The position numbers were made by a program, and so were the translations under genes. From Antedon mediterranea (Eukaryota; Animalia; Echinodermata): 64,000 nt of DNA. The DNA is taken from NCBI RefSeq assembly GCF_964355755.1, contig NC_092671.1:15557742-15621741 (forward strand), given 5' to 3'. The notes under the pieces were generated by a model. The model did not search any database, had not been told where the DNA came from, and saw only the letters and a list, made by a program, of their open reading frames with translations. Below are positions 18,553 to 48,400 of this stretch, one piece after another; the first letter of the stretch is position 1, and each line of letters opens with the position of its first letter.

Positions 18553-23589
<5,037 letters not shown>

Positions 23590-23839
23590 CTTTTTAGCGA
23601 CTACACTGTAAGCTTCCAACAACTCCTTTCACCTACAACTTCCGGATTCAAAAACCCGTTAGTTTCACAGATCAACAATGGTAGGTGAATATACCGGAGG
23701 AAAAATAGTCAAATATTTTATTGCAATAATACTTTTATAAAATATATGCTCTATAAATGTAGCTGTTCAAACGTCGATGCCTAAGATTTTGTGTGATATT
23801 TTGTATGATTCATTCACTTGAATTTTAGATGACGTTCAC

Positions 23840-23950
23840 ATCGACGACAGCAGATATGGCGGAGTTCAATTTCTAAACGCCCCTTTTTCTAGTTCACTGC
23901 GCATGCAGTGACGTAATCTGTACGCAGCAATTGAAGTAACTGCCCCGGAT
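23840..23950 (-). promoter_or_regulatory. Candidate Rab11 core promoter / CpG-rich segment
   Basis: A local CpG cluster in otherwise AT-rich DNA, 250-350 bp upstream of the Rab11 ATG. It contains the palindrome CTGCGCATGCAG (NRF-1-like GCGCATGCGC core) followed directly by TGACGTAA (CRE/ATF-like). Confidence 0.3.
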
Positions 23951-25029
23951 GTATAACAATAGACAAATTATGCAGTAAATTTATAAAAACAAATTCCCTT
24001 TGTTACTTTTCTTTCCTTTAGAAATTATTGTAGGCCTAATAATAGGACGGAAATCTGCATTGATAATACTACGTGCTCAATTCATATAAAACACATTAAT
24101 GGTTTTATGATAATGCTTATTTTATAAAGTATCGTCATAGTTTATTTGTTTTATCTCATTTAAAATACCTACGATTATCATGCAAAACACAGCAACTTAT
24201 GTAAAACGTGTACACGAGAAGTTACTATTGATTCTCTTTCAAAAATGTTTCTTAACATCTGGAATGCAAATAACATAAACATACTAGAATAGTACAATGT
24301 TTTAGGCCTACTACATTTATTACGTGACAGACTTAATATTGAAAACTTTTGGGCAGATGCATTATATTTTGTACAACAAATACCATTCATTTTTGTTCCC
24401 CATGAAACTTTTTTAAAGATGATCAATCACTGTGATCTCTAACTGTTTAAATAATGTTTTATAGTAGAATAATATGGTGTGCTTCGCAAGTGGCCTCGGA
24501 CATCATTGTGGCCAGGATGGTTCGTTTGTTTCCTTTTGAGGTACGTCCCGGAACATCCGATCATGTCCACCATTACTGCTACACAAGCGAAGAGTAAACA
24601 TAGCTGTAAGCATATCACAACCACCAGGTATTTAAAACCATTATGGTGATTGTCTCGCAAAATAAATTTGCCTCTTCTATGACGAATTTTCCAAAAATTG
24701 CATATTATTTTAGGAAAAAATGTTCTGTAAAATTAATTCCTAAAATTCTAATACTGTATTTCATAATAAATAACATACATTTAGGCTCGACGGTAAATGT
24801 ATCATTCAATCATAATTTTAGGTGATGTTGTATTCGGGTCCTTGCATAAGTAAACAATTTCGCGTTTAGGTTACGCAATGCGCAATTCATTTAGGCCTAT
24901 TTATAAAAACCCGGAAACAACTGAAAATACATCACTTTCGTGCCTATGAATAACTAGAAATAGAAACCCATTTCAATAATTAAATCAACATTTTAAAAAC
25001 TAGGACAACACAATCCAAACTCATCCTCC

Positions 25030-25204
25030 TTAAGTGTTCTGATAGCTTAGGTTTTTGCCGTATGGATCAGAGCGCACCCAAACGTAATCGTAACGTTTAC
25101 GTTGTTCATAAAAATAGCAACCAGCCATACAACAGCAACATACAACGCCCACGAACGTAACGAAACTGACAATGCTAACAGCTACCACAACTATTAACCA
25201 TACT
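25030..25204 (-). CDS. Small Cys-rich TM protein exon 3 (TM, CCCC, tail, stop)
   Basis: Acceptor ttcattttcag|agtatgg; stop TAA at 25032-25030. Confidence 0.55.
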
Positions 25205-26222
25205 CTGAAAATGAAAGTATATTCACATTATTATTATTATTATTATTTCATTTTATGTGTTTAAAAATTATAATATATTATTTATTAAATGATGCGTTTC
25301 TTTCGTTTCCACATTAATCAACACACATCTTCTTTCTTGGATGAGGACATGGCAAAATCAGCATGTCATGTTACAAGAGTAGTCAAAACAATAGGCCTAT
25401 AGATTATCTAATAAAAATCCTAGAAAGTAGGAAACATTTTGCCATTTTGTTCCCTGACTGACTACTCTTTAGAATTTTAGAGGCCAATTAGGCTTAAAAA
25501 TATTGTCTCCCACCCCTGACAAAAAATGTTGTTTGTTGAATATGCCATTTTCTAATGTCATTATTAACTTGAACCAATTGGATGGTAAAAATAATTTTTT
25601 AAATTGACAGTGCCGTCCAATGGAGGTTTTTGCTTGATAATTATTTTGTCTTTTCATATAGTGGTATAAGTAGTAGTATTAGGTCTTTTTATGATACCAA
25701 CATTTTTAATTTTAATATTAAATAACGAATTATTGTTCATGTTTTTGGACCATCATCTTTGATATTACACTTAGGCCTATGGTTATGGTCATTTTTATTT
25801 GTTCGCCGCTCTGTCTATGTCTTATCTGTCGTTCGTTGTCGATCGTTTCTTTAATAAAAAAGAACATTTTTTTAAATTGAACTTACTCGTATGATTCTAC
25901 ACAACATGAATCATGGTTATTGATTTTACAGCACTTTGTTTCTGACGGTGAATCATCTGGTCGTGGACAAATAGGAACGGTAAAACCGTTCGGACATTGG
26001 TCAGACAGAGTATCTATACAAAAAAAAATGCATTTGGAAGCAGATATAAATGTAGCGAAAAAGTCATTAACCTTTTCATATTGTACGACGAAACTAGATC
26101 TGTTCCGATAATGTACTAGGCTAATATATACTGTACTATAATTATTAATAAACTGGTGCCTTAATATAGAAGTTACCTGTAATCAAAATGAATATCACGA
26201 TGCATATTGGAACGAATTTCAT
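25030..26222 (-). CDS. Small secreted/single-pass Cys-rich membrane protein, 115 aa, unknown family (architecture loosely CYYR1/Shisa-like)
   Basis: Three minus-strand exons with GT-AG introns and continuous phase: 26177-26222 (MKFVPICIVIFILIT, signal peptide), 25887-26013 (DTLSDQCPNGFTVPICPRPDDSPSETKCCKINNHDSCCVESYE), 25030-25204 (EVWLIVVVAVSIVSFVTFVGVV-CCCC-MAGCYFYEQRKRYDYVWVRSDPYGKNLSYQNT then stop). Total 348 nt. A TATA-like GATAAAAAGG lies on the minus strand at about 26398-26407. Confidence 0.55.
25887..26013 (-). CDS. Small Cys-rich TM protein exon 2 (6-Cys ectodomain)
   Basis: Acceptor ttttttttgtatag|atactctg; donor tacga|gtaagt. Confidence 0.5.
26177..26222 (-). CDS. Small Cys-rich TM protein exon 1 (signal peptide)
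   Basis: ATG at 26222; donor ttacag|gtaactt. Confidence 0.5.
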
Positions 26223-26397
26223 CTTTCTTTGTTGTATTTAAAGTTAACAAATATATACGACGTTTTTAAACAAGAGAGTGTTCTAACAAGGAAGTAAAAC
26301 AGAAAATATAAGTTTACTGTACTCACATCTTCCTGTTATTCGAGAGTACGCTTCACTGCACCACCGAGTTCGAAATACAGTAAGTAAGTAAGTAGAA

Positions 26398-26407
26398 GGA
26401 CGCCACC
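26398..26407 (-). promoter_or_regulatory. TATA-like box upstream of the small Cys-rich gene
   Basis: Minus strand reads GATAAAAAGG, about 180 bp upstream of the ATG. Confidence 0.3.
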
Positions 26408-27038
26408 TTTTTATCGTCGGCTTGTAATTAGATCATTATTATCATTTTACAACAATATTTTGTAAGTTTATTTATATTTTTTAATAAGAAATAAATATTT
26501 AAAAATAAAAGCAACCTTTTTTATTATATTATCTATTATTTCAGTGAATATTTGATATGATTATCTTATTATAAAAAAAAAAAAAAAAAACAATGTTGAA
26601 AAGACAAACCGGTCACTTTTAAATTTTGTAAAAACGTCATTGAGTTGTTCGTCGTCGATGGTGTTGGTGCGGTGGATCGTCAGATAGATAGGCCTAGGAC
26701 ATATAGGCCTAGGTGAGTTACTAAATTGCGTATAATATGAACTTTTTCTTAATTTTACAATAAGCGTACATGATGGGAGAAAAGTTTAGGTTTGAATTAT
26801 GGTAACCATAGGCCTAGCTAAGCCCTAATTAGTAATAATAATTATAAATCTATCGATTGGTTGGTCTTTTTTAAAAATCTTTATGCCTAGGGCCTAGGCC
26901 TAGCAGTAGCTAGCTGCCCTAGGGCTATGGCTAGGGCGGCCTAATACTAATTATAGCTAGGCCCTGGCTGGCTGTGATGGCCTATCTATTTAATTATAAT
27001 ATCACCTAGGCTAGACCTGAGCTTATTAGGCCTGAGTA

Positions 27039-30016
27039 GGGCGCTACTGCAGTTTCGCACCACACCGTGGTATCTTCGATTTCTCACCTAAACTTTCGTT
27101 TTTTACACTCACAACATAATATTATGTAACATGTTTATACGATTCGACCACTTACGAAGTAATTTTTTTAAAATAACAATACTTTTCAAAACATTTTAAA
27201 CAATACTGAACTCGCTGTCAACACACTGCGAAATGTTCGCCATCTTATATTTATCACTTAATTGCCAGAATTTATGCTTCATTTTACCCCAAAAATTGTA
27301 GAAACTATAGAGGGCAGTGTTATAAACGCTTACACATATAGGCCTACCCTATTTAGTTTTGAAAAGCAAGAAATGTTTTCAGCTGGCGAAATAAAGGTTA
27401 AATTAATATTTAATTGTTAGTATTACTATTAATATTTATATCGCCGTGCTGGGGTAGCACTAACATTTCATTTTGTTTAGCCATTTGGCGAAAGTCAAAA
27501 TATTTTTTTTAGTCAAATCAGTTTATCTATAGTCAAACTGGCTAAAGTCAAATTTTTTTATTTAGCCAAATGAATCGGTTTATAGCCAAAATTTAAAATT
27601 TTTGAAATATAGTGGTAAAAACATTTTAGTCAATTTATCTATGTCAACAGGTCTATACACTGTTCCCTGAAGATTTTTGTAAGGCATTGAGATAAAGAAC
27701 CATGCCTAAATCACTGTATGATTAAAAAAAATATTTTTTTTGTATTTTTTTTACATGATCAAAACAATTGTTCAAATTGTTTTTTAATCATACAGCATTC
27801 ATACAGTTATCAATTTAATAAGAAACATTTTACAGTTTTCTGAAATCCCCTGAACGCTATGTTACTTTTGTTTTTTACGCTTGGCTGGTCATGTTTGCGT
27901 GTGACGGCTTCCATGGCGTACCAGGCGAAAATCGTGTCCTAGAATCACTCAGAATCACCGCCGCGCAGCCGGTTAATGTTTTTAAATTGGGTATGCTCAA
28001 GAGGTGCGAAAGTGCAGAACCACCGGCCTAGGCCTACATAATTATGTACAACAACGCAACGGTCTATCGTATGCTAAAAATATTGAGGAAAATTCCTAGC
28101 AAACGAACACTTGTATCGTTGTTAAACGTAAGATAATATAGGCCAAAGCACAGAGTACACGTACGTCAAGGCTGCGCCGAAGCGTTTCTGTCAGGGCGAG
28201 AAATTTATCCCAATTATTATTTATTTACACAACACAGAAGCCGGCGGCCGGCCCCGCTCAGATGCACGTGTGTGTTTAGCTAAATCCCCGTTAGACTCTA
28301 CCATTTCCCGCATGTTGTTTTGTTTACACTGACGCACGAGCGAAGTTTATTAAGGGTAAAATATGAAACTACATTAAATTGGAAGACTCTAAAATGCATA
28401 ACGCATACATTTTTCATTTCGATAAGATTAAGACGTCATTCATCGAAGATACTATACAGTAATGTTTCTTTTTAATCTGAAAAGTACACCCCTATCGAAA
28501 TATAGACAATCCCGGTAATTAGCCGACCGTCGGCTACGTAGTCGATCGTTTGTGCAGCGCACAACACGTGATAGTTTGGGTAGACTTCATCATCCATGTG
28601 TCGTGTAAAGTCTGTCTCTCTGTGCAGTCTACCTCTGCTATCTCCATCTTCGAAATAACAAAGAGACGCCTGGTACACCGAAACAAGTTGACGAAAAATG
28701 GAGCTTGAAGTAAACAACGTGATAACGAACAAAATAAATGCTTGGAGATCGACAAATGGACCTTTTAGTTGGACTTTATGCTTTCGCCAAAATGATTATT
28801 GAATTATCTATTTTATCATATGTCATCGCCAAAATGGCTAAAGTAGCCGTTTTATTTTTCGCCAATCTAGAAACGTTTTCGCCCATGGCGACTTGGCGAT
28901 CGGCCAGTGCGAGCATAGCCGTGGTTAGGATTCCGGCACCGGAACTCAACTGCCCACCATTAGGGAATCCGACACGCTATTGTGCATGCCCAGAGCTCTC
29001 GGAAGTGAATTATAGCTTGTGCCACACACCACACTAGTACCTGAGAGGATTTACTGTAGCCTATTTAGTCGTTGCGCGAGCAAGAGAGCGATGGATAAAA
29101 CTTGGCCTAGGCCATACATGAATTAATAATTAAAATACGACTACTTCACGCATTAAAATAATTATTATGATATTAATAAGAATCAGTATCTATCTACCGT
29201 AAGAATCGTAATGCTGTAGTAGCATTGCGACCCCCAGTTTTTTAAACATCCACGCGGTGGCTGCCGTCAACAAATTAACTTGTGATTGCATGTTATGTAC
29301 AGTTATAATGCGTTATATGAAAAATCATAAATCTAGTCAACTCATGTAATTATATAATTCATAATTATATGAAGTTTATATATGAATGAAGCAACCACTT
29401 TTTAATTACAAAATAAATAGGCCCACTGGTCACGTCTAGCTGGTAGGCCTAGCCTATAGTATTTACTATTAGTGGATCCCGTATTAGTTGGCATCTACGC
29501 TAGTTCGCCCCGTGGCGGAGCTATGAAATGATCCATCGCTGTTGATAAAGTATAGAGTCGCCGATTACCGGCTCTCTGGGCATGCGCAACAGCGTTTCGG
29601 ATTCCCTAACGGTGGGCAGTTGAGTTCCGGTGCCGGAATCCTAACCACGGCGTATTTATATTAATGGTTCCTATCAATGTTTTATGTACGGACTCATATC
29701 GTCGCCGTTTTGATATGTACAGCTGGTTCTTTATAAAACCACTCTAATTTGCAGTTTAAAAATAAAAACAGAAAATAAAACATACATTGATTTCTGGCAA
29801 TTTTCTGAATCTAAAATGGCCACAGTTCAATCGAAGTTTTCGCGAAAAAAGGAGTTGTTTTGAAAGGCATTTTTATTGTGATAAAGGTAATATAACGGTG
29901 GCTAAATCATGGGAACATGTTACATAATGGCCCAAAATTGTATGATGTGAGTGCGAGAAAAAAATGAAGCAAGAAATCGAAGATATAACAGTGTGGTGCG
30001 AAACTGCAGTAGCGCC
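27039..30016. mobile_element. hAT-like non-autonomous DNA transposon, about 2.98 kb (TIR GGCGCTACTGCAGTTTCGCACCACAC), 8-bp TSD CTGAGTAG
   Basis: 27039 gggcgctactgcagtttcgcaccacac ... gtgtggtgcgaaactgcagtagcgccc 30016. The flanking octamer ctgagtag is present on both sides. There are sub-terminal inverted repeats (28900-28990 versus 29565-29650) and internal palindromes (27715-27795). No intact transposase ORF. Confidence 0.75.
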
Positions 30017-30390
30017 CTGAGTAGGCCTAGACTAGCCTACCTAGCTTCTTAATCTTACTAATTAATAGCATGGTGGTCTGGCTATAATTTGTGTATGATT
30101 TGACAAATCATTGATTTGAAACATTTTTTTTCAACTTAAATTTAAAATTTGAATCAGGCCCATGGCCATGGGCCATACATAGCCTAGGCCCTAGATAGGC
30201 TAGTATGCAACAAAATATCTTATGCAGTATTACTATTATAGGCTATTTATTTTGATGAGAAAAATCAAATGGCAAATGCCTATTCTATAACATTCAGATA
30301 ATTTACTTTCTTCTTTATTATCATAGATAGGGTAGCCTAGTAGGTTTCAGTTTTGGATTATTTTTTTCCAGGAAGAAAATTGTTTAAATA

Positions 30391-30437
30391 ATGGATAACG
30401 TTCACGTTGCTATACGTGTTCGTCCTCTAATAACAAG
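30391..30437 (+). CDS. CENPE: CENP-E-like exon 1 (start)
   Basis: aaata ATG GAT AAC ...; donor acaag|gtcagt. Confidence 0.85.
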
Positions 30438-33400
30438 GTCAGTGAATTTTCATAATTTGTCTATTTTATATATATTGTGTATATTTATACTCTGAGATTT
30501 ACTTCATACAGTATGTGAATATTTATCAAAACCTTTAAGAAATGGAAAGTCTAACGATTATTTGATAATTGTTTTATTTGAATTTAATGTTATAGGGAAT
30601 CCAGTCATGATACAAACTTACATTGGAAGGTGGAAAATAGTACGATATATCAAGTAGATTCAAAGAATAAAAATGTTGGAAAACCCTATACTTTTGGTAG
30701 GTCTTCTGTTCGAAACAGCAAATATGTATGTTGTTTGTTCATTTAAACTAAAAGAAGAGTGTCAATTTATTTTTATATTATCTGATTTTGTTTAGATCTC
30801 ACAAATTGAATTCTGTTCATTTTGTTTCAGATTATGTTTTTCATATGGGACAATCAACAAATGATGTATATTCACAAGTTGCAGAGCCTATTATAGAATC
30901 AGCTATGGATGGATATGATGGTACTATAATAATATATTATATAACACCCAAATAAATTCCTTCCTGGCGTGCAATAGTACGCACTATTGAATTGTTATTC
31001 AATAGTACCTTTTTTCTCTATTTTTCATGTACATAAAACCTTTTTTAAATATAACATTTACTATATTATAAAAAACCTAATATATATATATAATTGTTTT
31101 GCAATCACCTAATTGAAATATAACCTTTCATCATTCACCTCATGTCATTATTTGTACCATTACACTCATAAACATTCATTATTTGTATAATATGATGAAA
31201 ATGAGTAATTAAAGATGTATTGTCCCCCTGAAAAAATAATTTTTGTTGAATATGCCATTTTAATGTAACATAATAGTTATCAACTTTGACCAAAAATTGG
31301 ATCGGAAAAAAAATGTATGTACCTAAAAAAATGTCAAATTGGCTGCCAGCCCAGGGCCGTAGCCAGGATCTGTCAAGGGGGGGTTCGGACACTAAATATT
31401 TAGTGCATCAGGCCCCACCCCCAGATGCGAAGCGAATTTTGTTAAATGACACCCCTAGATGGCCGGAAAAGACACTCTCATGCAGCATTCTACCAATGAG
31501 CAAAAAGATTGTACTTTTTTCCTCCTTCTCAAACACGTCGATAATTTAAAGGACGATAACTATTTGTTGCCGTATGTTAGATGCGCGTGCTCTGTGCGGA
31601 ACCGCCGCTTGTTTGATCATTTACTCCGTATTTTGTTTTGCGTTCAAGTTCAATGCGAACGTACATCTAGGAGCAGCCCCGAAAAAAGCACACTGGTTGA
31701 AGGTAAATGCTATTTGCTAGCTCTATCTATAATATTTATTTACAGCAATTTGTTGAGGAATACAAATATGTAAATAGGTGATATTGATACATTTTAGTAC
31801 GCATCGGCTGGTGGTCTAGAAAAAAATAATCGGATGCCATAATGTGAACTACAGTACTTGATACCATAGATATTATAGTGTAAAATATTAATATTCACTA
31901 TAATCCTCTATGATACATAGTCACACATAAATACTGATGTACGTCGGAAGGCTATATACTTTATGCATGCTGCCTGACTGCCAGTGATCTAAACAATTAT
32001 AGGTACGCAGTTGTCTGGCGGTGTCCTTTGTACGAATCGTTCGTGCCCCAGTTCGCTATGAAACGTGTCAATATCATGTTACATGCAGGGACCAAACATT
32101 TATTTTTCAGGTTAAAATCGGCAATTCATTTGCAGCTTTTAGAAATTTACAGACACGTATCGCTAGTTGACGCTCATACAGAGAAGAAGGTTCACGAACA
32201 AGTTTACGAATTTTTCAATTTACAAACAACTTTTTGTACTGTGGGGCACGTATTTGGAGGATTTTTGGAGATGAGGGTGAGGTATTGGGCATGTCGGGGA
32301 TGGGGGTTCGCAGTCGGTTAAGGGGGTTTCGCTGTAAAGGGGGAGGTTCGCCCGAACCATAAAAACCCCCCCTGGCTACGGGCCTGCAGCCAGTGGGTTT
32401 TTGGTTGAATTTAGCCATTTATTTTATCGTTTTATAAGTGAAAGCATTTTTTTTTTGTTTTTTTTTTCTACAGAAGGGTTTAACTTTTTTAAAACTACAA
32501 AATAACATATTCAAAGTCTGATTTAATTAATCTTCATGTTTTTGGGGGACAATACATCTTTAATCTATTGCTTTTTTTTACTGTACACAATTCAGTCAAA
32601 ATGCTGACATGACATACACAAAGATATACAGTAATGTCACTGTGTATCATAACCCTACCACCACACATTAGAATCTTTGTCTGACTTTTACTATACAAAC
32701 CTCTTGTTGCTAATACTATTGTTGTTTATTTGATGTTAAAGGTACTATTTTTGCCTATGGGCAAACATCCAGTGGCAAAACGTTCACAATGCAGGGTAAT
32801 GCGAGTATACCTGGAATAATTCCAAAGGCAATTCAACAAATTTTTAATACCATTGACCAGGTAGGATGAACTTCAAATAAAAATAATTTAGACACTCTGA
32901 TCTTTGATTAAATTATATTTGTTTTTACATTTCTTGTGTGTACTGTAATATAAAAATATATTTATTTTCAACCAATGGCACTTTTTGACAGCTCTTGGGT
33001 TGTATTTATTTATAATGATTTTTTTCTTTTTGAAATCTATAATTTTTATAATAAATTAATTCAGAATTTTAGGATATCAGATACTGTATATACAAAAAAC
33101 ATGAATTCTTGGTTTTTTTAAGGCATTAACAAAGAATGTTTTTTATAGTCAACTGATAGAGAGTACCTATTGCGAGTTTGTTACATGGAGTTGTACAATG
33201 AAGTCATCACAGATCTTTTGTGTAAAGATGGAAAGGGGCTAAACATCAGAGAACAAGAGGTAAATGAAATAGTATGTGGTAGAAATACAAGCCATTAACA
33301 ATATGTATATTTGCATTTATTCTATGTAAATGCTATGAAGAAATGCACTCATGCCTGATGAATTATTCTTCTCCAATAAGATAACATCAAATTCAAATTA

Positions 33401-39400: not shown

Positions 39401-42400
39401 ATTAGTTTGACTTTTTCATCTGTTTGAGTATTTTAACTTTATGAATCCTCTTATAGTTTTGTTTGAATGTCGTCTATATATTTTTGTATCGTTTATAAAA
39501 GGGCGTCTTCAAGTCAGTTGTACTGCTACTACTACTACTTGTAAAACAAAGTTGAATTGCCTTATAGTGCATGCTTTAATTTTCTTTTATTTTTGTGACA
39601 GACTGGAAATGAAGAATCTTCTCAGAAAATGAAGGAACTGGAAATGAGTTTAGAAGATGCCGAGGCGGTTCTAATGGATACCAACAAAGCATTATCTGAA
39701 ATGAAAGACATTAATGTGGTATTAGAGAAAGAGATGGTAAGGAACAATGTACAATAAAGATAATGTTAATTACTCTTCATTATTCAGTACCTAGTCTAGT
39801 ATACTGTGTCTAATAATATCCCAGGATTGTTGGCAAGTACACATTCCCATCAGGGCTCGATTTATCTTTTTCATGTTGCTAGCCCACTGGGCTAGTTCAC
39901 TGTAGATTTCACTAGCCCATACATTATTTTACTAGCCCACTCTTATTATCGCACCGTGATAGCAGGGCCGCCATATAAATGAATTCAGGCATTTTGTACA
40001 ATAGAGGGCGCACTAATCTAAACGCTCGAGAATTGCTACACATTTACATACAAACTGTATTAAACTATTATTGCATGAAAAATTACACAAAATTGTATTT
40101 CTTTATTGTTCACATCCCGGTTCACATAAAAATTAACTGGCGCTACTGCAGTTTCGCACCACACCATTATATCTTCGATTTCTCACCTAAATTTTTCTTT
40201 TTCACACTCACAACATAATATTATGTAACATGTTTATACGATTCGACCACTTACGAAGTAATTTTTTTTAAATAACAATACTTTTCAAAACATTTTAAAC
40301 AATACTGAACTCGATGTCAACACACTGCGAAATGTTCGCCATCTTATATTTATCACTTAATTGCCAGAATGTATGCTTCATTTTCCCCAAAAAATGTAGA
40401 AACTATAGAGGCCAGTGTAATAAAATCCGATTACACATATATAGGCCTAGGCCTATTTAGTTTTGAAAGGCAAGAAATATTTTCAGCTGGCGAAAGAGAG
40501 GTTTAATTAATATTTCATTATTAATATTAGTATTATTATTCATGTTAATAGGTCCTATCAATGTTTTATGTACAGACTCATATCGTCGCCGTTTTGATAT
40601 GTACAGTGAGCTAGCTGGTTCTTTATAAAAACCACTCTTTGCAGTTTAAAAATAAAAACAGAAAATAAAACATGCATTGATTTATGGCAATTTTCTGATT
40701 CTAAAATGGCCACAGTTCGATCGAGGAAATAGAGCTGTTTTGAAAGGCATTTTTTATTGTGATAAAGGTAAATATAACGGTGGCTAAATCATGGAAACAT
40801 GTTACATAATGACCCAAAATTGTATGATGTGGGTGTGAGAAAAAAATTAAGCGATAAATCGAAGATTTAACAGTGTGGTGCGAAACTGCAGTAGCGCCAA
40901 TTAACTTTGCATTGCGACGCATAGTCTATTTCATGCTCAACATATTCACAGAATCGATTTATTGAGGTCTTTTTGTTGTTGGGCTTCAACCTAGCCAAGA
41001 AAACTAATTAGATTCTGTCTACCTTAGGCTAGAGGCCTAGGCCTAGAGCCTATTATTATAGTAGGGTAGCTAGGATAGACCTACCTACTAGGCCTAGATC
41101 GCATTGGAGCACCTGGCCTACTGTACCAAAATGGTACTATAGGCCTAGCTAGGCCTAGGTAGTATCTAGCTAGGCCTAGCTGCTGCTGAGCAGCCATCAC
41201 GATGCCAAACGATGGCTTTTGATTCTATCTAGGCCTCCTACGCATATTATAAAATATGGCCTCCATGGCCTACCTACAGGGATAGAGCCAGCCACCCGGC
41301 CCTACAAAATATCCCTAGCTTTGATCTGTGACAACCAGGCCTGATGACAAGACTAGACAAGTTATTTTTAACATTGGCAAAATTCTACTACATTTGGCCA
41401 ATCACAGTTCGTTATTTATGGTCATATTTTTGTGACATGTTTGACCTGATAATGAAGCTCCGCCTACTTCACAATAACCAGGGTGACAAAAACATAAATG
41501 GCCAATCATAATTCGGGAAATTTGTTTGATTATGAGAGGCTCCGCCTACATCATCACTTGTTATGGCCACAGCAGCAGCGCGCCAGTGGTTTTTTTTTAT
41601 GATGTTGCCAAGACATATATGTCTTTTATGCTGGAGTTATTTTTATGAGGTCATTTCGTCCCAATTTCGAGTTCCCACAACCTACTAGCCATCCGGGCTT
41701 AAAGGAAGATACTTTAGGTAGCCCGGAGCTGTTTTTACTAGCCATTGTACGCCGGGCTAGCACTAAATCGAGCCCTGCCCATACACTCATTCCCATACAC
41801 TCATTCCCATACACTCATTTAATAAAGTCTCTTAAATACAGTACTACTATAACTTTATAGTTATCTCTTAATAATATTGATATCATTTTATATCAGGGAT
41901 GTCACCACGGCCCCGTCCACCACTCGCAATTTCCGACCACCATTTTCATGACGCCAACCACCACTATATTTACGCATGTAGATAGTAGTCTATTGTTCGT
42001 AACCTACTACTAATGCTACGATGTATTGTTATTATGTAATCGATCTTGTGTGTTTGTCTGTTTGTTAGCAGGATTACTCAAAAAGTAATTACAAGATCTT
42101 TACCAAAATAAATGTAAAGATAGATATGTGGTCAAGGACCATTCCATTAAATTTTGGGACCATTTGAAACCACGGTTCCAATTCTGGACCACTTTTTTGT
42201 ATACTTTTCAGACGTGCTAGTGTTAAAATAAGAGATAGGGCATCCCATGGTGGTGAAATTAGGTGGTATCTCTCATCTAATTGGTGCAGATTTTTTTAGT
42301 CAGATATTGGTACCTAGTTCATCTAACCAAATGTCTCTGGCCTGCCTGTCTGGTAGCCGGACAACCCCCCCACCCGATTTTTTTTGGGGGGAGGGGGGGT

Positions 42401-45400
42401 GTCGTCGACCACCACTCATGCTGGTTACATCCCTGTTATATATAGGAAAGTTTGAAAAAAAGATTACAGCAACTGGAGAATGAGAAGTCCGACTTCCAGG
42501 TGAGCATAGATATTCAGAAGGATAAGAGTGATCGTATGTGTACTGAATTAAGAACAGAATTACAATTGACCTACCAAGAACTTTCTCAGGTCAGAGGTGA
42601 AGAAGTTCATATACCAGAAAATACTCAACATTCGGTACAAGAATTACACAACACTATTGAACGGTAAATATATATGAATGAACTATGGAAGATCTATTTA
42701 TTTACAAAAGATTTAATGTGTGAATTATAAAGCCATGTCTTGTTGAAATATAAATTTAACATTTTCTTTTTAGTCTTACAAAAGAAAGTGTGACTTTGAA
42801 AGAAGACCTACAGTTAAGCATTACAAGTGTAAGTTTTCTTGATACCATTACCACATTTTTTTTCCGGCCATGCACTAATAAATTGAAATAATCAAATATA
42901 GAGATTTGATTTTGCAGAGTGTTGAGATTCAAGAAGATCTTATTAACTGTCAAGAGGAATTGGAACAATGTTCAGACAAGTGCAAGAAATTAAAGACTGA
43001 AGTTTTAACCCTCCACAAGGAACTGGAATGTTCCAGAAAGGTATCAGAAGAAAGAGTTACTCAACCTGAAGTAAGCAACCTACAAGATCAAGAGATGTAT
43101 ACACAAGAGATTGAAGCACTTAATAGCAAAATACTGGCTCTTCAAGAAGAACTGGAATGTTCCAGAAAGGTATCAGAAGTTAATCAACCTGAAGTAAGCA
43201 ACCTACAAGATCAAGAGATGCATACACAAGAGATTGAAGCACTTAATAGTAAAATACTGGCTCTTCAAGAAGAACTGGAGTGTTCCAGAAAGGTATCAGA
43301 AGTTAATCAACCTGAAGTAAGTAACCTACAAGATCAAGAGATGCATACACAAGAGATTGAAGGACTTAATGGCAAAATACTGGCTCTTCAAGAAGAACTA
43401 GAGTGTTTCAGAAAGGCATCTGAAGAAAGAGTTACTCAACCTGTAGTAAGTAATCCACAAGATAGCCAAGAGATGCATAAACAAGAGATTGAAGCACTTA
43501 ATGGCAAAATACTGGCTCTTCAAGAAGAACTTGAGTGTTCCAGAAAGGCATCAGAAGAAGGAGTTACTCAACCAGAAGTAAGCAACCTACAAGAGATGCA
43601 TACACAAGGGATTGAAGCACTTAATAGCAAAATACTGGCTCTTCAAGAAGAACTGGATGGTTCCAGGAAGGCATCAGAAGGAAGAGGTAATGAAAGGGAA
43701 GTAAGCACCATTCAAGAGATGCATAAACAAGAGATCGAAGCACTTAATAGCAAAATACTGGCTCTTCAAGAAGAACTGGATGGTTCCAGAATGTTGGCAG
43801 AAGAAAGAGTTACTCAACCTGAAGTAAGCAACATACAAAACCAACAGATGCATACACAAGAGATTAAAGCACTTAATAGCAAAATACTAGCTCTTCAGGA
43901 TAAACTCCAGCAGAAAGGGGAGAATGCACATGAAGAAGAACTAGAGATTGTCAAGAATATTGAAAAAAAGACAACTGAGGATAATTTGACAGTTTTGACG
44001 ATGCAGGAAACTCTACAGGAACGTGAAAAAGAGTGTGAAACTCAGAGGATTATCATAGTTTCTCTTCAAAAAGAAATTGAGCAACTGTCTTCTAATGATA
44101 TGGAATTACAAGAAAAGGAAGCATGTGATATAAATGGAAGCAATCAGGGGACTAGTAACATGGTTCTTCAAAAAGAATCGGATCACACTGCTGCAGAAAA
44201 GGAACATCCAGACAAAGAATCTGACATAATTTGTAATTTGCAAATGCAATTGAATGTGAAGACAAATGAATGTGAAACTTTAAATGAAATGGTGGTCTCC
44301 CTTCTTGAACAACTAGAAAAAGACAAAGAGTTTAAAGAAAGTGCTGAGGAGAGTGACTTAAAAGTCAAAGTTATAGAGCTTGAACGAAGATTGGAATTAA
44401 GTAGAGATTACGAGGTAGAACTTGAATCTCAAGTAGAAAATTTAAGAGAACTAACTATGATCAATGAATATGAAAATCCAGAAATTAATTCAAAGGAAAC
44501 GTTAATGGATGTTGCTGAGAACGATCCAGAATTGATTTCAGAAAGGGATACTACTTCAGGTAATAAATGCTCAGAAGAAGAAGATATCAGTTTAGATGAA
44601 AGTGAGAATATAACATCAGCCAGTATGGCTACAGTAGAATATGGTGAAAACAGGAAAAAGAATCTTGAATCAAAAGTTACTGAATTACAGGTTCGACTAG
44701 AAGAGATGACAGATTTACTGACGGAAATGTCGAAAAAACTTGAGCACTCGGAAGAGATGCTGAAATTCTCAAAAGATTATGAAGTTGAACTTGAAAGGCA
44801 ATTGGAAGAAGCAAATAAGAGCAAGGAACAGCAGATGGAAATGTTTAATAGGGATCAAGCTGAGACAGAATCAAAATTGGCTGATATGGAAACCAAAGTA
44901 TATGGCTCAGAGGCTAGTTATACAACTATAGAGTCAAAACTGACTGATGCAGAAGCCAAGTTGGTTTTTATGGAGTCTAATATAAGGGAAACCGAGGCGA
45001 AGTTTGCTGAAATGGAATCTAAGATTGTTGAGTTGAAATCAAAGCTTGCTGAATCGGAGGTTAAAGTTGAACAATGGAAGGTTGAAGCGGAAAGGAATAA
45101 ACGTTTGATTGCAGAACAGAGCATGAGCACTGATATGATGACAACACAGTAAGTTGATCTAAATATGAACTAGTATGAGCTTGTATGCTTTCTGCTTTAA
45201 AAATATGGTTCTTGAGACTACATATCTTCTAATACAGTATCTCTATATATTATTGTGAATACTGTGTTCAAAAAGATAATGTTTTTTATATATCCAGGCT
45301 TGAATCGTACAGACAGACTGCTGATCGTGCAAAGGGTGCACTTTTAGCTGAGAGCAACCGTGAGCTTGACCAGCAACGCAAGATTGAAACTCTTGAAAAT

Positions 45401-48400
45401 GCCCAGAAAGAGTCAGTAGCAGTTTTTCAACAGGCCAGTAAAGAAAAAGATGAGATTATTGCAGGTCTGGAGAAGAAGACCAAAGATCTATTGACCAAGT
45501 TAAGACAAACAGAAGCAGAGAGTGATCAAGCCACCCACAGGTCATTGCAGATGGAAAGAGAATCCCAGGTATAATTAATTATTTCAATTGTAAAATAGAT
45601 TACGGATAGAAATTGAACAGAGAATGGCCTATTAAAAAAATTACATTCATTTATACAAAGAAAATACAATTAACAGATTTACAATAAAAATCAGTACTGT
45701 ATAGATCATAAAAATACAATGTTATATTTCATCTTCTCTACCAGCCATGATGTTCTCGCATGTTATCAATGTTATGGTATACATACCTAACAAAAAGCTT
45801 GAAAAGCCTGCTATAAATGAGATCGCAGAAATTATCGAAGGTATTGAGTGTAGTCACCCTGAGGCGCTTGTAATTATCAATGGCGATTTCAACAGATGCA
45901 AGCTCAAGAAAACAACTGCCACATATTATCAGCATGTTACATGTAAAACGAGGGACAACGCGATTCTTGATTTATGCTACTCTAGTGTGAAGGATGCCTA
46001 TATTTCGACCCCACTACCGAACTTGGGCAAATCTGATCATAATTTGATTTTACTCAGTCCTAAATATCGCCCGTTAAATAAGACATGCCAACCAAAAATT
46101 ATTAATGTACGTAAATGGTCTCCTGAAGCCGAGGAAGCCCTGATAGCAGAATTTGAATCTACCGATTGGGATATTTTTACGGAGGATGAAGATTTGAATA
46201 GTATTACTTATGCAGTGAGCTCGTACATAAACTTTTGTATTGATAAATGCGTTCCAGTTAAAAAAGTGAAAATCTACCCTAATAACAAGCCATGGATCAC
46301 GAAAGGCGTTAAATTACTGTTGTGTGAGAAACGTAAAGCCTTTAAGATGGGCGACTCTAATCGTATGAAAATATTGACTAGAGAGATTAAATCTGAAATA
46401 AGGAAACAGAAGAACATTTATAGGAAAAAAGTTGAACATAACTTCAGGTCTAATAATATGAAACAAGTTTGGCAGGGTATTAAACTTATGAGTGGTTACA
46501 CAAACGGTGGTAATACACCCACCTCGATTCCGAATGTTACTGTGCAATATGTTAATGAGTTAAATGAATTTTATAACCGTTTTAATGTTCATGATTTTAA
46601 AAAAGAAAGAGAGGCCCTATTTAGCTTGTGTCGGGTGACTGAAGATGATCCCAAATTTAGTATAAGCATTTCTGATGTACATAGCGAATTCATGAAACTC
46701 AATTCATCGAAGGCTGCTGGGCCGGATAGAATCCCACCACGAGTACTTAAGGTCTGCTCTCCTCACCTTGATGGTATATTTACATTTATTTTCAATATGT
46801 GTCTTTCTTATCATGCGTTCCCGGATATTTGGAAACTTTCATGCATAATACCGGTACCTAAGAAACCTAAGATTAACAGCATGAATGATTTGAGACCCGT
46901 TGCACTCACGTCTGTCGCGATGAAAATATTGGAACGTATTATTTTAAAAATTATGCAACCTTATGCTGAAAAAGTGTTAGACCCGTTGCAATTTGCTTAC
47001 CGATCACTCCGTAGTACCAGTGATGCGATTTATTTTAAATTACATAAATTGTATTCACATCTAGATAATGTAAAGAAAGGCCACTCGGCACGTATTATGT
47101 ATTTTGATTTTCAGTCTGCGTTTAATACCATACAACCCCATATCTTAGCAGACAAAATGTTGAATATGGAGTTTCCCCGTCCGATTGTTCGTTTAGTTTT
47201 AAATTTCATTTGTGATAGAAAACAATTTGTTAATATTAATGGTGTTAAGTCAGAAATCGTAACCTCTGACACCGGTGTTCCTCAGGGTACTGTCAACGCA
47301 CCTAAATTATATTCCTTGTATACGGCCGATTACAGATCTTTAAATGATGAGCTTTGCCCCGTTGTTAAATTCGCTGATGACACTAGTACTATTGGTCTCA
47401 TAGTTTCAAACAATGATGAAAATTATCGTAGCGAAATACAAAGATTTGTAAAATTTTGTGACGATAATTATCTCCAAATAAATGCATCAAAAACAAAGGA
47501 GATGATCATTGATTTTAGGACTAAACATAAATTTAATTTTCAACCAATCACTATCAAAGGTAAAGAAATTGAAATTGTTGACCAGTACAAGTATCTAGGA
47601 ATTGTTTTCAATGATAAACTGAATTGGGGAGACCATATAGACTACATCAGCAAAAAATTAAATCCCAGAATGTATTGTATGAGAACTTTATATAAATTTA
47701 ACTCCTGTGATTTGATGTTACTTTCGTTTTATAGATCCGTTATATGTAGTGTTTGGACGTATTGCCTCTCCTGTTGGGCTGGTAATGTTACCGGAGGGAA
47801 TAAAGGACGCCTTGAAACTTTCATCCGTCGGGCTGGTAAAATGATTGGTCTGGAACTGCCTTCCTTTACCGATGTGCACCTAGAACACCTCCAGAAAGAT
47901 TTCGAACGCATTGAGTCGGATGCCTCTCATCCTCTCCACAAAGTGATCATAGACCAACTTAATCCAAGTGGTAGATTGAGGCTCCTCAGTGTGAAAACAA
48001 ATCGATTTGCTAAATCCTTTATTCCCTCCGGTATCATCCAGTACAACAGGAAGTCAAGAAGATAATTTTATCTTGTAATTTTTTAGATGTTTTTATATGA
48101 ATGGTTTTATGCTATATTTGTTTTTATTGTGTTTTCTTTGTTATTATGACGAGCAATGAATTTCCTTGTTGAGGATCAATAAAAGTTATCTTATCTTATC
48201 TTATCTTATGTAATATTTACTTTTATGTTTAAAGGACCTTCGTGATCGTGTAAAGGAGCTGGAGAATCACGCTTTTGATAATCGCCAGTTAACATGCAAA
48301 CAAGATATGGATCCTGCTAAGCTTGCACAACGTTTAAAACAAGTGGAGTTCAACCTTGATATAACAAAGCAAAAGGCAGATAAATTTGAGAAAATAAACA

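What the first reader, a model, noticed from the sequence alone, without database searches (positions are those of the whole stretch)
25030..26407. Candidate novel small Cys-rich single-pass membrane protein gene between Rab11 and CENP-E
Three exons on the minus strand splice cleanly with continuous phase. They encode a 115-aa protein of unknown family. It has a classic signal peptide (MKFVPICIVIFILIT). The roughly 40-aa ectodomain has 6 Cys in a C..C...CC....CC pattern. A 23-aa TM helix is followed by a CCCC palmitoylation-like cluster and a Tyr-rich cytoplasmic tail (YFYEQRKRYDYVWVRSDPYG). A TATA-like box sits about 180 bp upstream. The architecture loosely recalls CYYR1/Shisa-type proteins, but I cannot recognise a family. 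None of the provided six-frame ORFs captures it, because it is split across exons.
Basis: seen in the sequence. Interest (0 to 1): 0.7.

Follow-up and report, generated by a model that had tools for sequence, protein, structure and literature searches.

The report
Crinoid Shisa-like small membrane protein gene
The three-exon gene is real and conserved, but it is an ordinary, uncharacterised member of the known Shisa-like group of small cysteine-rich membrane adaptor proteins, and a related feather star already has it annotated.

Summary
Minus-strand exons 26222-26177, 26013-25887 and 25204-25030 join through GT/AG introns into a 115-aa protein. It has a signal peptide, a 40-aa ectodomain with six Cys (C-x8-C-x11-CC-x7-CC), a TM helix, a CCCC..C cluster and a Tyr-rich tail.

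The gene is real. The feather star Anneissia japonica has a 115-aa orthologue (LOC117110702, 63% identity). It has identical exon lengths (46/127/175), dN/dS about 0.13, unalignable introns, and the same neighbours (CENP-E-like kinesin and Rab11).

A profile search found about 26 small relatives in all five echinoderm classes, hemichordates, a brachiopod and corals. Those tested share the same two intron positions. Nearly all are annotated "uncharacterized".

The ectodomain aligns with all six Cys of vertebrate Shisa-like-2A (hhalign 96.5%, far above shuffled controls). Two relatives pass Pfam Shisa_N. The best PDB fold match is the Shisa3 N-domain, though that match is not significant. The window protein itself passes no Pfam threshold.

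The crinoid proteins lack the PPxY motifs found in 9 of 27 relatives. They keep an invariant Tyr-based tail instead.

Verdict: a new member of a known kind. Its function is inferred, not shown: a palmitoylated trafficking adaptor. Interest is low to moderate.

The parts
26177..26222 (-). Coding exon 1 (46 nt): ATG plus signal peptide MKFVPICIVIFILIT and the first base of codon 16. The intron that follows is phase 1.
   Evidence: The Anneissia orthologue has the same 46-nt exon and phase. A phase-1 intron sits at the end of the signal peptide in Holothuria and Acanthaster relatives too.
26014..26176 (-). Intron 1 (163 nt, gt...ag)
   Evidence: It is not alignable with the Anneissia intron (277 nt).
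25887..26013 (-). Coding exon 2 (127 nt). It encodes the whole six-Cys ectodomain TLSDQCPNGFTVPICPRPDDSPSETKCCKINNHDSCCVESY. The intron that follows is phase 2.
   Evidence: This is the only part of the gene body found by blastn against Anneissia (26025-25879, 71%). tblastn hits from 17 relatives land here. The ectodomain-only AlphaFold model has pLDDT 82.5 with a beta-hairpin across CC...CC.
25205..25886 (-). Intron 2 (682 nt, gt...ag). It contains two TAGGCCTA sites (25392, 25772).
   Evidence: It is not alignable with Anneissia.
25030..25204 (-). Coding exon 3 (175 nt including stop TAA). It encodes the TM helix (W60-C82), the CCCC..C cluster, the basic patch, and the tail DYVWVRSDPYGKNLSYQNT.
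   Evidence: It is 73-75% identical in protein to Anneissia, and the last 19 residues are identical at 17 positions. The stop codon is at the same position in both species.
26359..26414 (-). Probable core promoter and transcript start. It holds the TATA-like ATAAAAAG (26414-26407), the conserved GGTGGCGTCCTTCTAC (26407-26392) and TTTCGAACTCGGTGGTG (26375-26359).
   Evidence: Alignment with the Anneissia upstream region shows two near-identical blocks in otherwise unalignable AT-rich DNA. The promoter function is inferred; no transcript data were available.
26279..26299 (-). Second conserved upstream block TTTTACTTCCTTGTTAGAACA, about 60-80 nt before the ATG. It is probably 5' UTR. A 5'-UTR intron (donor GATgtgagt at about 26327) is possible but unresolved.
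   Evidence: (TTTTACTTCC.TGTT..AACA shared with Anneissia).
24362..24414 (-). Conserved block near the probable 3' UTR end. It includes TGGTATTTGTTGTACAAAATAT, identical over 22 nt.
   Evidence: blastn gives 83.6% over 55 nt, at the same distance (about 620-670 nt) after the stop in both species.
24316..24321 (-). AATAAA polyadenylation signal candidate. It implies a 3' UTR of about 710-730 nt.
   Evidence: Anneissia has AATAAA directly after the same conserved block. This is an inference.

Best explanation
This is a genuine protein-coding gene under purifying selection, lying in a crinoid (feather-star-like echinoderm) genome. It encodes a 115-aa type I single-pass membrane protein.

The protein belongs to the Shisa-like (STMC6) superfamily of small transmembrane adaptors. 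Within it, it falls in an unnamed subfamily defined by the motif 'CP-x3-[YW]-x-F-x2-CPRP-x-D-x4-6-T-x-CC-x7-10-CC-x5-8-W' followed by a TM helix, a Cys cluster and a basic patch.

Shown here:
- The gene model.
- Orthology with Anneissia LOC117110702, including exon structure and synteny.
- Negative selection.
- The wider family and its shared intron positions.
- Profile-level homology of the ectodomain to Shisa-like-2A.

Inferred mechanism:
- The signal peptide is cleaved near S19/D20.
- The 40-residue ectodomain folds into a small knot with three disulfides. It serves as the luminal or extracellular binding module for a partner membrane protein, as Shisa proteins do.
- The C80-C83/C87 cluster at the cytosolic end of the helix is S-palmitoylated, as shown experimentally for WBP1L.
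- The short tail carries sorting or docking signals: a basic patch, a Y-x-x-hydrophobic motif (DYVWV) and the invariant SDPYGKNLSYQ.

The crinoid proteins lack [LP]PxY motifs. Unlike CYYR1, WBP1L and their own longer relatives, they therefore probably do not recruit NEDD4-type ubiquitin ligases directly. They more likely act through tyrosine-based sorting.
For: Gene reality:
- Clean GT/AG splicing into a 348-nt frame.
- One orthologue at 63% identity (E 1.6e-47) with identical exon lengths 46/127/175 and phases.
- NG86 dN 0.25, dS about 2, omega 0.13. The third codon position is 51% identical against 85% at the second.
- Introns are unalignable while exon 2, the promoter blocks and a 3'-UTR block are conserved.
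- The arrangement of divergent kinesin and downstream Rab is conserved.

Family:
- 27 hits at E<=1e-3 among 1.84e9 representatives.
- Sources are echinoderms, hemichordates, Lingula and Porites.
- C22, C31, P32, C43, C44, C52 and C53 are invariant; D36 and W60 are nearly so.
- Holothuria and Acanthaster relatives have the same two intron positions and phases.
- The Acanthaster relative also lies beside Rab11.

Superfamily:
- hhalign of the family against a verified SHISAL2A alignment gives 96.5% (E 8.7e-10) over the six Cys, with no TM contribution.
- With the Shisa_N-positive members removed it still gives 94% (full length) and 90% (ectodomain only). The crinoid pair alone gives 90.9%.
- Real scores of 30-38 compare with shuffled-column maxima of 17.7-24.7, including shuffles that keep the CC doublets together.
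- P0012 and P0033 pass the Pfam Shisa_N gathering score. P0012 and P0025 carry PF27717 Shisa5_N in precomputed annotation.
- The only PDB ectodomain hit of the family profile is Shisa3 5m0w (E 0.013).
- The ectodomain model's rank-1 Foldseek hit among 350,542 chains is 5m0w (TM 0.52, rmsd 2.0 A, 31% identity).

Functional analogies from the literature:
- The C*C*CC*CC pattern defines Shisa-like/STMC6 proteins, which act in trafficking and degradation (PMC5578492).
- WBP1L is palmitoylated and binds NEDD4 ligases through [L/P]PxY (PMC6991692).
- CYYR1 binds WWP1 through PPxY at late endosomes (PMC11399591).
Against: - No transcript evidence for this gene or its Anneissia orthologue could be obtained.
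- The window protein itself passes no Pfam gathering threshold. Its only hit is WBP-1 at 18.7 bits against 28.1, and it has no Shisa_N hit even at E<=10.
- The precomputed annotation for P0001 lists no Pfam family.
- hhalign E-values are pairwise, not corrected for a database search.
- The domain is short and Cys-dominated, so convergence cannot be strictly excluded.
- The published Shisa phylogeny did not include the six members of this subfamily that I checked.
- Palmitoylation, topology, disulfides, sorting and partner binding are all inferred by analogy. The PY motif on which the best-studied relatives depend is absent.
Confidence: 0.75

Rival explanations
1. [quoted passage not shown]
For: [quoted passage not shown] The proteins share signal peptide, Cys-rich domain, TM and Cys-in-TM architecture, and a Tyr-rich composition.
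Against: The hhalign match covers only CC..CC plus the TM helix and is largely hydrophobic. It does not cover the CP...CPRP half of the domain. No member of the family, P0021 included, hits Pfam CYYR1 at E<=1. The three PPxY motifs essential for CYYR1 function (PMC11399591) are absent from the crinoid protein. The SHISAL2A match is better and covers all six Cys.
Confidence: 0.08
2. It is a divergent member of the WBP1/WBP1L/VOPP1 family (Pfam WBP-1).
For: WBP-1 is the only Pfam hit of the window protein (E 0.0028, residues 41-87) and it also hits P0001 (E 0.019). Three of 20 family members hit it weakly.
Against: The scores (18.7 and 16.1 bits) are well below the gathering score of 28.1. The match covers CC..CC plus the TM helix only. 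hhalign against VOPP1 (sequence from memory) gives only 17.7%. No [LP]PxY motif is present. WBP1/VOPP1 are themselves placed inside the Shisa-like superfamily (PMC5578492), so this is a question of sub-branch only.
Confidence: 0.06
3. It belongs to an independent family of small Cys-rich membrane proteins that only converges on the Shisa-like pattern. Short CC..CC motifs next to a TM helix arise easily.
For: The window protein passes no curated family threshold. The structural matches are non-significant. The family profile also matches the coronavirus spike TM plus Cys cluster at E 0.004-0.3, which shows that this part is compositionally generic. The subfamily is absent from the published Shisa alignment.
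Against: The match to SHISAL2A lies in the ectodomain only. It includes the non-Cys positions F-x-CPRP and the exact CC-x7-CC spacing. It exceeds every one of 150-200 shuffles, even with CC doublets preserved. Intermediate sequences link the family transitively to Shisa_N and Shisa5_N. 5m0w is the rank-1 fold hit.
Confidence: 0.1
4. It is not a functional gene: a chance arrangement of ORFs with splice-like sites, or a decaying pseudogene.
For: No transcript data were available. The protein is absent from the protein collection searched.
Against: An orthologue has the same length, exon lengths, phases and stop position at dS about 2, with omega 0.13. Promoter and 3'-UTR blocks are conserved. 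Synteny is conserved.
Confidence: 0.01

Closest known systems
Shisa-like 2 proteins (SHISAL2A/FAM159A, SHISAL2B) and the 'Shisa-like' six-Cys group of Pei & Grishin 2012
   Same: Both are small single-pass proteins with a short N-terminal domain of six Cys in C*C*CC*CC order, sharing the F-x-CPRP ... CC-x7-CC core. The ectodomain profile aligns at 90-96.5% hhalign probability. The ShisaL2 subfamily is reported as deuterostome-specific and expanded in hemichordates (PMC7653359), which fits the taxa found here.
   Different: Vertebrate SHISAL2A starts directly with the Cys domain and has no signal peptide. It has a WW-rich TM start and a long Cys-poor tail. The crinoid protein has a signal peptide, a CP-x3-Y-x-F first half, a CCCC cluster, a basic patch and a very short Tyr tail. 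It does not reach the Pfam Shisa_N threshold. The subfamily also occurs in Lingula and Porites, so it is not restricted to deuterostomes.
Shisa proper (Shisa1-9; solved N-domain of mouse Shisa3, PDB 5M0W)
   Same: Both have a Cys-rich N-domain, a TM helix and adaptor-type architecture. 5m0w is the only ectodomain PDB hit of the family profile (E 0.013) and the rank-1 Foldseek hit of the ectodomain model.
   Different: By established knowledge of the Shisa domain, Shisa proper has eight Cys (C*C*CC*C*CC*C). It also has a long Pro-rich tail, often with PY or PDZ-binding motifs. Here there are six Cys and a 25-residue tail without PY. The fold match is statistically non-significant.
CYYR1
   Same: Both have a signal peptide, Cys-rich domain, TM with Cys residues and a Tyr-rich composition. 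CYYR1 is considered part of the STMC6 superfamily (PMC5578492). NCBI labels the sea-star relative 'CYYR1-like'.
   Different: There is no Pfam CYYR1 hit. The three PPxY motifs that mediate WWP1 binding are absent. The similarity is confined to CC..CC plus the TM helix.
WBP1 / WBP1L (OPAL1) / VOPP1
   Same: The CC..CC-TM-Cys arrangement is shared, and there are weak Pfam WBP-1 hits. WBP1L is experimentally palmitoylated (PMC6991692). That is the best precedent for the predicted acylation of C80-C83/C87.
   Different: The Pfam score is below threshold, VOPP1 gives 17.7% in hhalign, and there are no [LP]PxY motifs.
Coronavirus spike TM + Cys-rich endodomain (analogy only)
   Same: The family profile matches the W-rich TM start, the helix and the CCxxCC cluster of spike S2 at E 0.004-0.3. 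By established knowledge, that segment is heavily S-palmitoylated.
   Different: No homology is implied. The match is to the compositionally biased TM and Cys segment only.

Membership tests
Shisa-like / STMC6 superfamily (Pei & Grishin 2012, as summarised in PMC5578492) | Six conserved ectodomain cysteines in the order C*C*CC*CC immediately after the N-terminus or signal peptide | tested here: met
   The six Cys are C22, C31, C43-C44 and C52-C53. They are invariant in 20 aligned family members.
Shisa-like / STMC6 superfamily | Short single-pass transmembrane protein with the Cys domain outside and the tail inside | tested here: met
   The protein is 115 aa. Hydropathy peaks at 3-14 (signal peptide) and 60-82 (TM). 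AlphaFold shows a helix at 56-96. A basic patch QRKR follows the helix, consistent with the positive-inside rule. Topology itself is inferred.
Shisa-like / STMC6 superfamily | Detectable sequence-profile homology of the Cys domain to an accepted member | tested here: met
   hhalign against the SHISAL2A alignment gives 96.5%. It gives 90-94% without the Shisa_N-positive members and 90.9% for the crinoid pair alone. All scores exceed all shuffles.
Shisa-like / STMC6 superfamily | Cytoplasmic PY ([LP]PxY) motifs for WW-domain ligases (frequent, not universal) | tested here: not met
   There are none in the window protein or in P0001. They are present in 9 of 27 relatives.
Pfam Shisa_N (PF13908) | HMM score at or above the gathering threshold (22 bits) | tested here: not met
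   The window protein has no hit at E<=10, and none is recorded for P0001. Family members P0012 (24 bits) and P0033 (26 bits) pass, so the link is transitive only.
Pfam Shisa5_N (PF27717) | HMM score at or above threshold | not testable with these tools
   The model is not in the local Pfam copy. Precomputed hits exist for P0012, P0025 and an Apostichopus neighbour gene. None is recorded for P0001.
Shisa proper (Shisa1-9) | Eight-Cys pattern C*C*CC*C*CC*C and a long Pro-rich tail (established knowledge of the family) | tested here: not met
   Only six Cys are present. The Cys between the doublets and the final Cys are missing, and the tail is 25 aa with one Pro.
Shisa proper (Shisa1-9) | Fold of the Shisa3 N-domain (5M0W) | tested here: inconclusive
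CYYR1 (Pfam PF10873) | HMM hit and three C-terminal PPxY motifs | tested here: not met
   No CYYR1 hit appeared for any of the 20 members or for P0021. There is no PPxY.
WBP1/VOPP1 (Pfam PF11669) | HMM score at or above 28.1 bits, plus PY motifs | tested here: not met
   Scores are 18.7 bits (window) and 16.1 bits (P0001). There is no PY. VOPP1 gives 17.7% in hhalign.
Orthologue of Anneissia japonica LOC117110702 | Best reciprocal similarity, same exon-intron structure, same neighbours | tested here: met
   63% identity over the full length and the only close hit. Exon lengths are 46/127/175 in both. Both are flanked by a kinesin and a Rab gene.

The most novel reading that the evidence does not exclude
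The 'CPxxYxFxxCPRPxD...CC...CC...W' proteins may form a distinct, ancient subfamily of Shisa-like adaptors, shared by cnidarians and bilaterians and still unnamed. Pfam thresholds miss them, and the six members checked are absent from the published Shisa phylogeny. In crinoids the usual route of PY motifs recruiting NEDD4 ligases would then have been replaced by an invariant tyrosine-based tail (DY[VI]WVRSDPYGKNLSYQ). That would imply a different cytoplasmic partner and possibly a different cellular role.
Probability: 0.3. Interest if true: 0.35.

Novelty: new member of a known kind. Interest (0 to 1): 0.25.

Why it matters
The value is mainly for annotation. A real three-exon gene too small for six-frame ORF lists can now be given a gene model, an orthologue and a superfamily. 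A set of about 26 invertebrate 'uncharacterized' proteins can be tied to the Shisa-like adaptors.

Biologically, Shisa-like proteins control the surface delivery and degradation of receptors such as Frizzled, FGFR, AMPA receptors and CXCR4 (the last via WBP1L). A PY-less echinoderm branch with a strictly conserved Tyr tail is a small natural experiment in how such adaptors can be rewired.

It does not open or settle any long-standing question.

Tried and rejected
- **Pfam scans.** I scanned the window protein, P0001 and all 20 aligned members. Only sub-threshold WBP-1 and TMEM52 hits appeared, plus generic TM-region hits (Cadherin_C_2, Comm, EphA2_TM and others), which I regard as compositional.
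- **Word-indexed protein searches.** The single sequence found one homologue. The family alignment added little.
- **Synteny beyond crinoids.**
  - Holothuria P0002 and P0017, Apostichopus P0014 and Diadema P0010 have no Rab or kinesin gene within 10 kb.
  - Amphiura P0004 is not on record.
  - Only Acanthaster P0021 lies near Rab11, and in the opposite orientation. I treat that as suggestive, not proof of one-to-one orthology.
- **Structure searches.**
  - The full-length model gave only noise in Foldseek/PDB, with 5m0w at rank 7 and E 7.
  - The afdb50 library was unavailable.
  - phmmer of the ectodomain against PDB was uninformative.
- **Ectodomain-only structure job.** I repeated it with the exon-2 translation.
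- **Literature.**
  - Pei & Grishin 2012 (PMC3295595) is not held, so its family definitions are cited second-hand.
  - Six family peptides were not found in the supplementary Shisa alignment of PMC7653359. The stored files may be truncated.
  - A search for TAGGCCTA returned only primer sequences.
- **Other checks.**
  - Rfam found nothing in 20000-32000.
  - There is no second copy of the family in the window.
Full report
**1. Observation**

- Exon 1 is 26222-26177 (46 nt), exon 2 is 26013-25887 (127 nt) and exon 3 is 25204-25030 (175 nt including TAA).
- Both introns are canonical gt...ag, with pyrimidine-rich acceptors (tttttgtatag, cattttcag) and good donors (gtaact, gtaagt).
- The 348-nt frame encodes MKFVPICIVIFILITDTLSDQCPNGFTVPICPRPDDSPSETKCCKINNHDSCCVESYEVWLIVVVAVSIVSFVTFVGVVCCCCMAGCYFYEQRKRYDYVWVRSDPYGKNLSYQNT.
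- Hydropathy gives two hydrophobic segments, residues 3-14 and 60-82. An AlphaFold model built on the family alignment shows helices at 4-18 and 56-96 and a beta-hairpin across the two CC doublets (mean pLDDT 76, ectodomain 82-86).
- The TATA-like ATAAAAAG sits at 26414-26407.
- The neighbours are Rab11 (exon peptide best matches Rab-11A, E 1e-37) and a CENP-E-type kinesin (motor exon best matches CENP-E 1t5c, E 2.5e-37).
- The window is AT-rich eukaryotic DNA (about 32% GC).

**2. Is it a real gene?**

One close homologue exists in 5.8 billion clustered proteins: Anneissia japonica (a feather star) 'uncharacterized protein LOC117110702'. It is also 115 aa and is 63% identical over the full length (E 1.6e-47).
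- Its locus (L001) has a 2926-aa kinesin upstream on the opposite strand and a 216-aa Ras/Rab gene downstream on the same strand. That is the arrangement in the window. blastn aligns the kinesin and Rab exons of the two loci at 73-87%.
- Threading the Anneissia protein through its DNA gives exons of 46, 127 and 175 nt, with intron phases 1 and 2, identical to the window.
- Nei-Gojobori counts give pN 0.21, pS 0.70, dN 0.25 and dS about 2 (saturated), so omega is about 0.13. Identity by codon position is 70%, 85% and 51%.
- The introns do not align at all.
- Four things outside the coding exons do align:
  - Two upstream blocks beside the TATA-like element: GGTGGCGTCCTTCTAC at 26407-26392 and TTTCGAACTCGGTGGTG at 26375-26359.
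  - A block about 60-80 nt before the ATG, at 26299-26279.
  - A 55-nt block about 620-670 nt after the stop, containing a 22-nt identical run. An AATAAA follows it in both species.

Together these define a plausible transcript from about 26390 to about 24300. No transcript data could be reached. The exact protein is not in the collection, and P0001 is recorded only on its genome contig. Expression therefore remains inferred from conservation.

**3. The wider family**

A profile of the two crinoid proteins, searched without a word index against 1.84 billion representatives, gave 27 hits at E<=1e-3.
- All are 103-203 aa.
- They share a signal peptide, 'CP-x3-[YW]-x-F-x2-CPRP-x-D-x4-6-T-x-CC-x7-10-CC-x5-8-W', a TM helix, a CCxCC-type cluster and a basic patch.
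- Sources:
  - Sea cucumbers: Holothuria and Apostichopus.
  - Sea urchins: Strongylocentrotus and Diadema.
  - A brittle star (Amphiura) and a sea star (Acanthaster).
  - Hemichordates: Ptychodera and Saccoglossus.
  - The brachiopod Lingula, where the genes form a cluster on one contig.
  - Porites corals.
- Every one is 'uncharacterized' or 'hypothetical' except Acanthaster, which is labelled 'CYYR1-like'.
- Holothuria P0002 and Acanthaster P0021 have the same three-exon structure. Their phase-1 intron is at the end of the signal peptide. Their phase-2 intron splits the codon two residues before the conserved Trp. This is independent evidence of common descent.
- P0021 lies 6.7 kb from a Rab11 gene, but in convergent orientation. 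Four other echinoderm members have no Rab or kinesin neighbour. Microsynteny is therefore firm only within crinoids.
- An intronless Logan contig (L005) encodes Holothuria P0017 exactly. That shows at least one family member is transcribed.

**4. Which known family?**

No Pfam model reaches its threshold on the window protein. WBP-1 gives 18.7 bits against a gathering score of 28.1. P0001 gives WBP-1 at 16.1 bits and TMEM52 at E 0.09. Across 20 members the hits are scattered and mostly generic to TM regions.

Two relatives do pass Shisa_N: P0012 (24 bits, threshold 22) and P0033 (26 bits). P0012 and P0025 carry PF27717, which names Shisa5_N.

Direct profile-profile comparison gave the clearest result.
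- Against a SHISAL2A/FAM159A alignment built from database sequences, the family aligns at 96.5% probability (E 8.7e-10). The alignment runs over C1 to C6 and includes F-x-CPRP and CC-x7-CC, with no TM contribution.
- Removing the Shisa_N-positive members leaves 94% (full length) and 90% (ectodomain only). The crinoid pair alone gives 90.9%.
- Real scores of 30-38 compare with column-shuffle nulls of about 10 +/- 2.5. The null maxima were 17.7-20.2, or 20.0-24.7 when CC doublets are kept together.
- CYYR1 (sequence from memory) matches at 94%, but only over CC..CC plus the TM helix. VOPP1 gives 17.7%.
- In the PDB, the only ectodomain hit of the family profile is the Shisa3 N-domain 5m0w (E 0.013). 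The other hits are the coronavirus spike TM and Cys-cluster segment, which is an analogy of composition.

The literature agrees with this pattern.
- Shisa-like/STMC6 proteins are defined by C*C*CC*CC next to a single TM helix. The group includes WBP1, VOPP1, TMEM92 and CYYR1 (PMC5578492).
- A 2020 phylogeny reports a ShisaL2 subfamily confined to deuterostomes and expanded in hemichordates, and says Shisa1/L1 was lost in echinoderms (PMC7653359).
- That study's sea-urchin gene (SPU_024991) is a different gene. Six peptides from the present family were absent from its supplementary alignment.

This branch therefore appears to have been overlooked. It sits inside the Shisa-like superfamily, nearest to the ShisaL2-type ectodomain.

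**5. How it probably works (inferred)**

- The signal peptide is cleaved around S19/D20, by the small-residue rule at positions -3 and -1 read directly from the sequence.
- The 40-residue ectodomain forms a knot with three disulfides and acts as the binding face.
- The helix from W60 to C82 spans the membrane.
- C80-C83 and C87 at the cytosolic boundary are S-acylated, as shown for WBP1L (PMC6991692).
- The tail begins with QRKR and a Y-x-x-hydrophobic motif (YDYV/YVWV; YIWV in Anneissia). A 'basic patch + Y[VI]x[VI]' motif recurs in ten family members.
- The final SDPYGKNLSYQ is identical in the two crinoids despite saturated silent divergence. That argues for a specific cytoplasmic partner.
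- Nine of 27 relatives carry [LP]PxY motifs. This is the device by which CYYR1 and WBP1L recruit and activate NEDD4-family ligases. The crinoid proteins have none.

I therefore favour a palmitoylated trafficking adaptor that uses tyrosine-based sorting rather than direct ligase recruitment. My confidence is about 0.35 for that mechanism, about 0.8 for superfamily membership and above 0.95 for the gene being real.

**6. Novelty and verdict**

It is not a new kind of thing.
- An orthologue is already annotated, though uncharacterised.
- Homologues are widespread in invertebrates.
- The architecture is that of a known superfamily.

What is modestly new is the link between this unnamed subfamily and the Shisa-like proteins, and the PY-less crinoid tail. 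Interest is 0.25.

**7. Seen in passing**

- The palindrome TAGGCCTA occurs 27 times in the window against 0.39 expected. Eighteen sites lie in the 22.4-30.1 kb span from Rab11 through the small gene to the kinesin, and seven lie at 40.4-41.2 kb. The flanks differ from site to site.
- The orthologous Anneissia locus shows the same enrichment, 11 sites against 0.23 expected, clustered upstream of the small gene and around the Rab11 5' end. I found no explanation in the literature.
- A 22-bp tandem array of 26 copies lies at 19451-20034, next to a Rab11 exon.

Noticed in passing
window 22458-30029 (18 sites) and 40442-41178 (7 sites); also 10917 and 51798; L001 8961-9400 and 14897-16491: The palindromic 8-mer TAGGCCTA occurs 27 times in the window against 0.39 expected from shuffles. 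The sites concentrate in the intergenic and promoter span from Rab11 through the small gene to the kinesin, including both introns of the small gene. Flanking sequences differ, so these are not copies of one repeat. The orthologous Anneissia locus shows the same enrichment (11 against 0.23 expected) at corresponding places. It may be a crinoid promoter or insulator-type motif, but it remains unexplained.
   Followed up: partly
window 19451-20034: There is a tandem array of a 22-bp unit (GTAAAATGAAGGGAATAAAATG), about 26 copies at 92% match. It lies immediately next to the Rab11 exon that encodes [18 protein letters not shown]..., and a mechanical ORF runs through both.
   Followed up: no
window 24362-24414 and L001 11676-11730: A conserved 3'-UTR block contains a 22-nt run identical between the two crinoids (TGGTATTTGTTGTACAAAATAT), just upstream of an AATAAA in both. 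It is probably a post-transcriptional regulatory element of the small gene. It is a near-match, not an exact match, to a Pumilio-type UGUA element.
   Followed up: partly
window 23534-23956 and L001 15351-15751: A block around the Rab11 5' end is 77% identical over about 425 nt between the two crinoids. In Anneissia it begins about 345 nt before the called start of the Rab gene (15696). This points to a long conserved 5' UTR or promoter.
   Followed up: no
proteins P0007, P0013, P0016, P0018, P0019, P0024 (Porites, Saccoglossus, Lingula and unnamed sources): Some relatives carry two or three tandem copies of the CP...CPRP...CC...CC module before the TM helix. Lingula has several paralogues on one 1.09-Mb contig. 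Apostichopus P0014 has a 121-aa neighbour with a weak Shisa5_N hit. The family therefore expands by tandem duplication of both genes and domains.
   Followed up: no
family profile A4 versus PDB: The TM helix plus Cys-cluster part of the family profile matches the SARS-CoV-2 spike TM and Cys-rich endodomain (E 0.004-0.3). This is a compositional analogy to a known heavily palmitoylated segment, not homology.
   Followed up: no
window 27486-27590: There is a 53-bp direct repeat of 2 copies at 76% match, in the intergenic DNA between the small gene and the kinesin gene.
   Followed up: no
window 42000-56000: This stretch shows strong positive GC and AT skew (purine-rich plus strand). That is consistent with the long coiled-coil exons of the CENP-E-like kinesin on the plus strand. 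Exons were not mapped.
   Followed up: no
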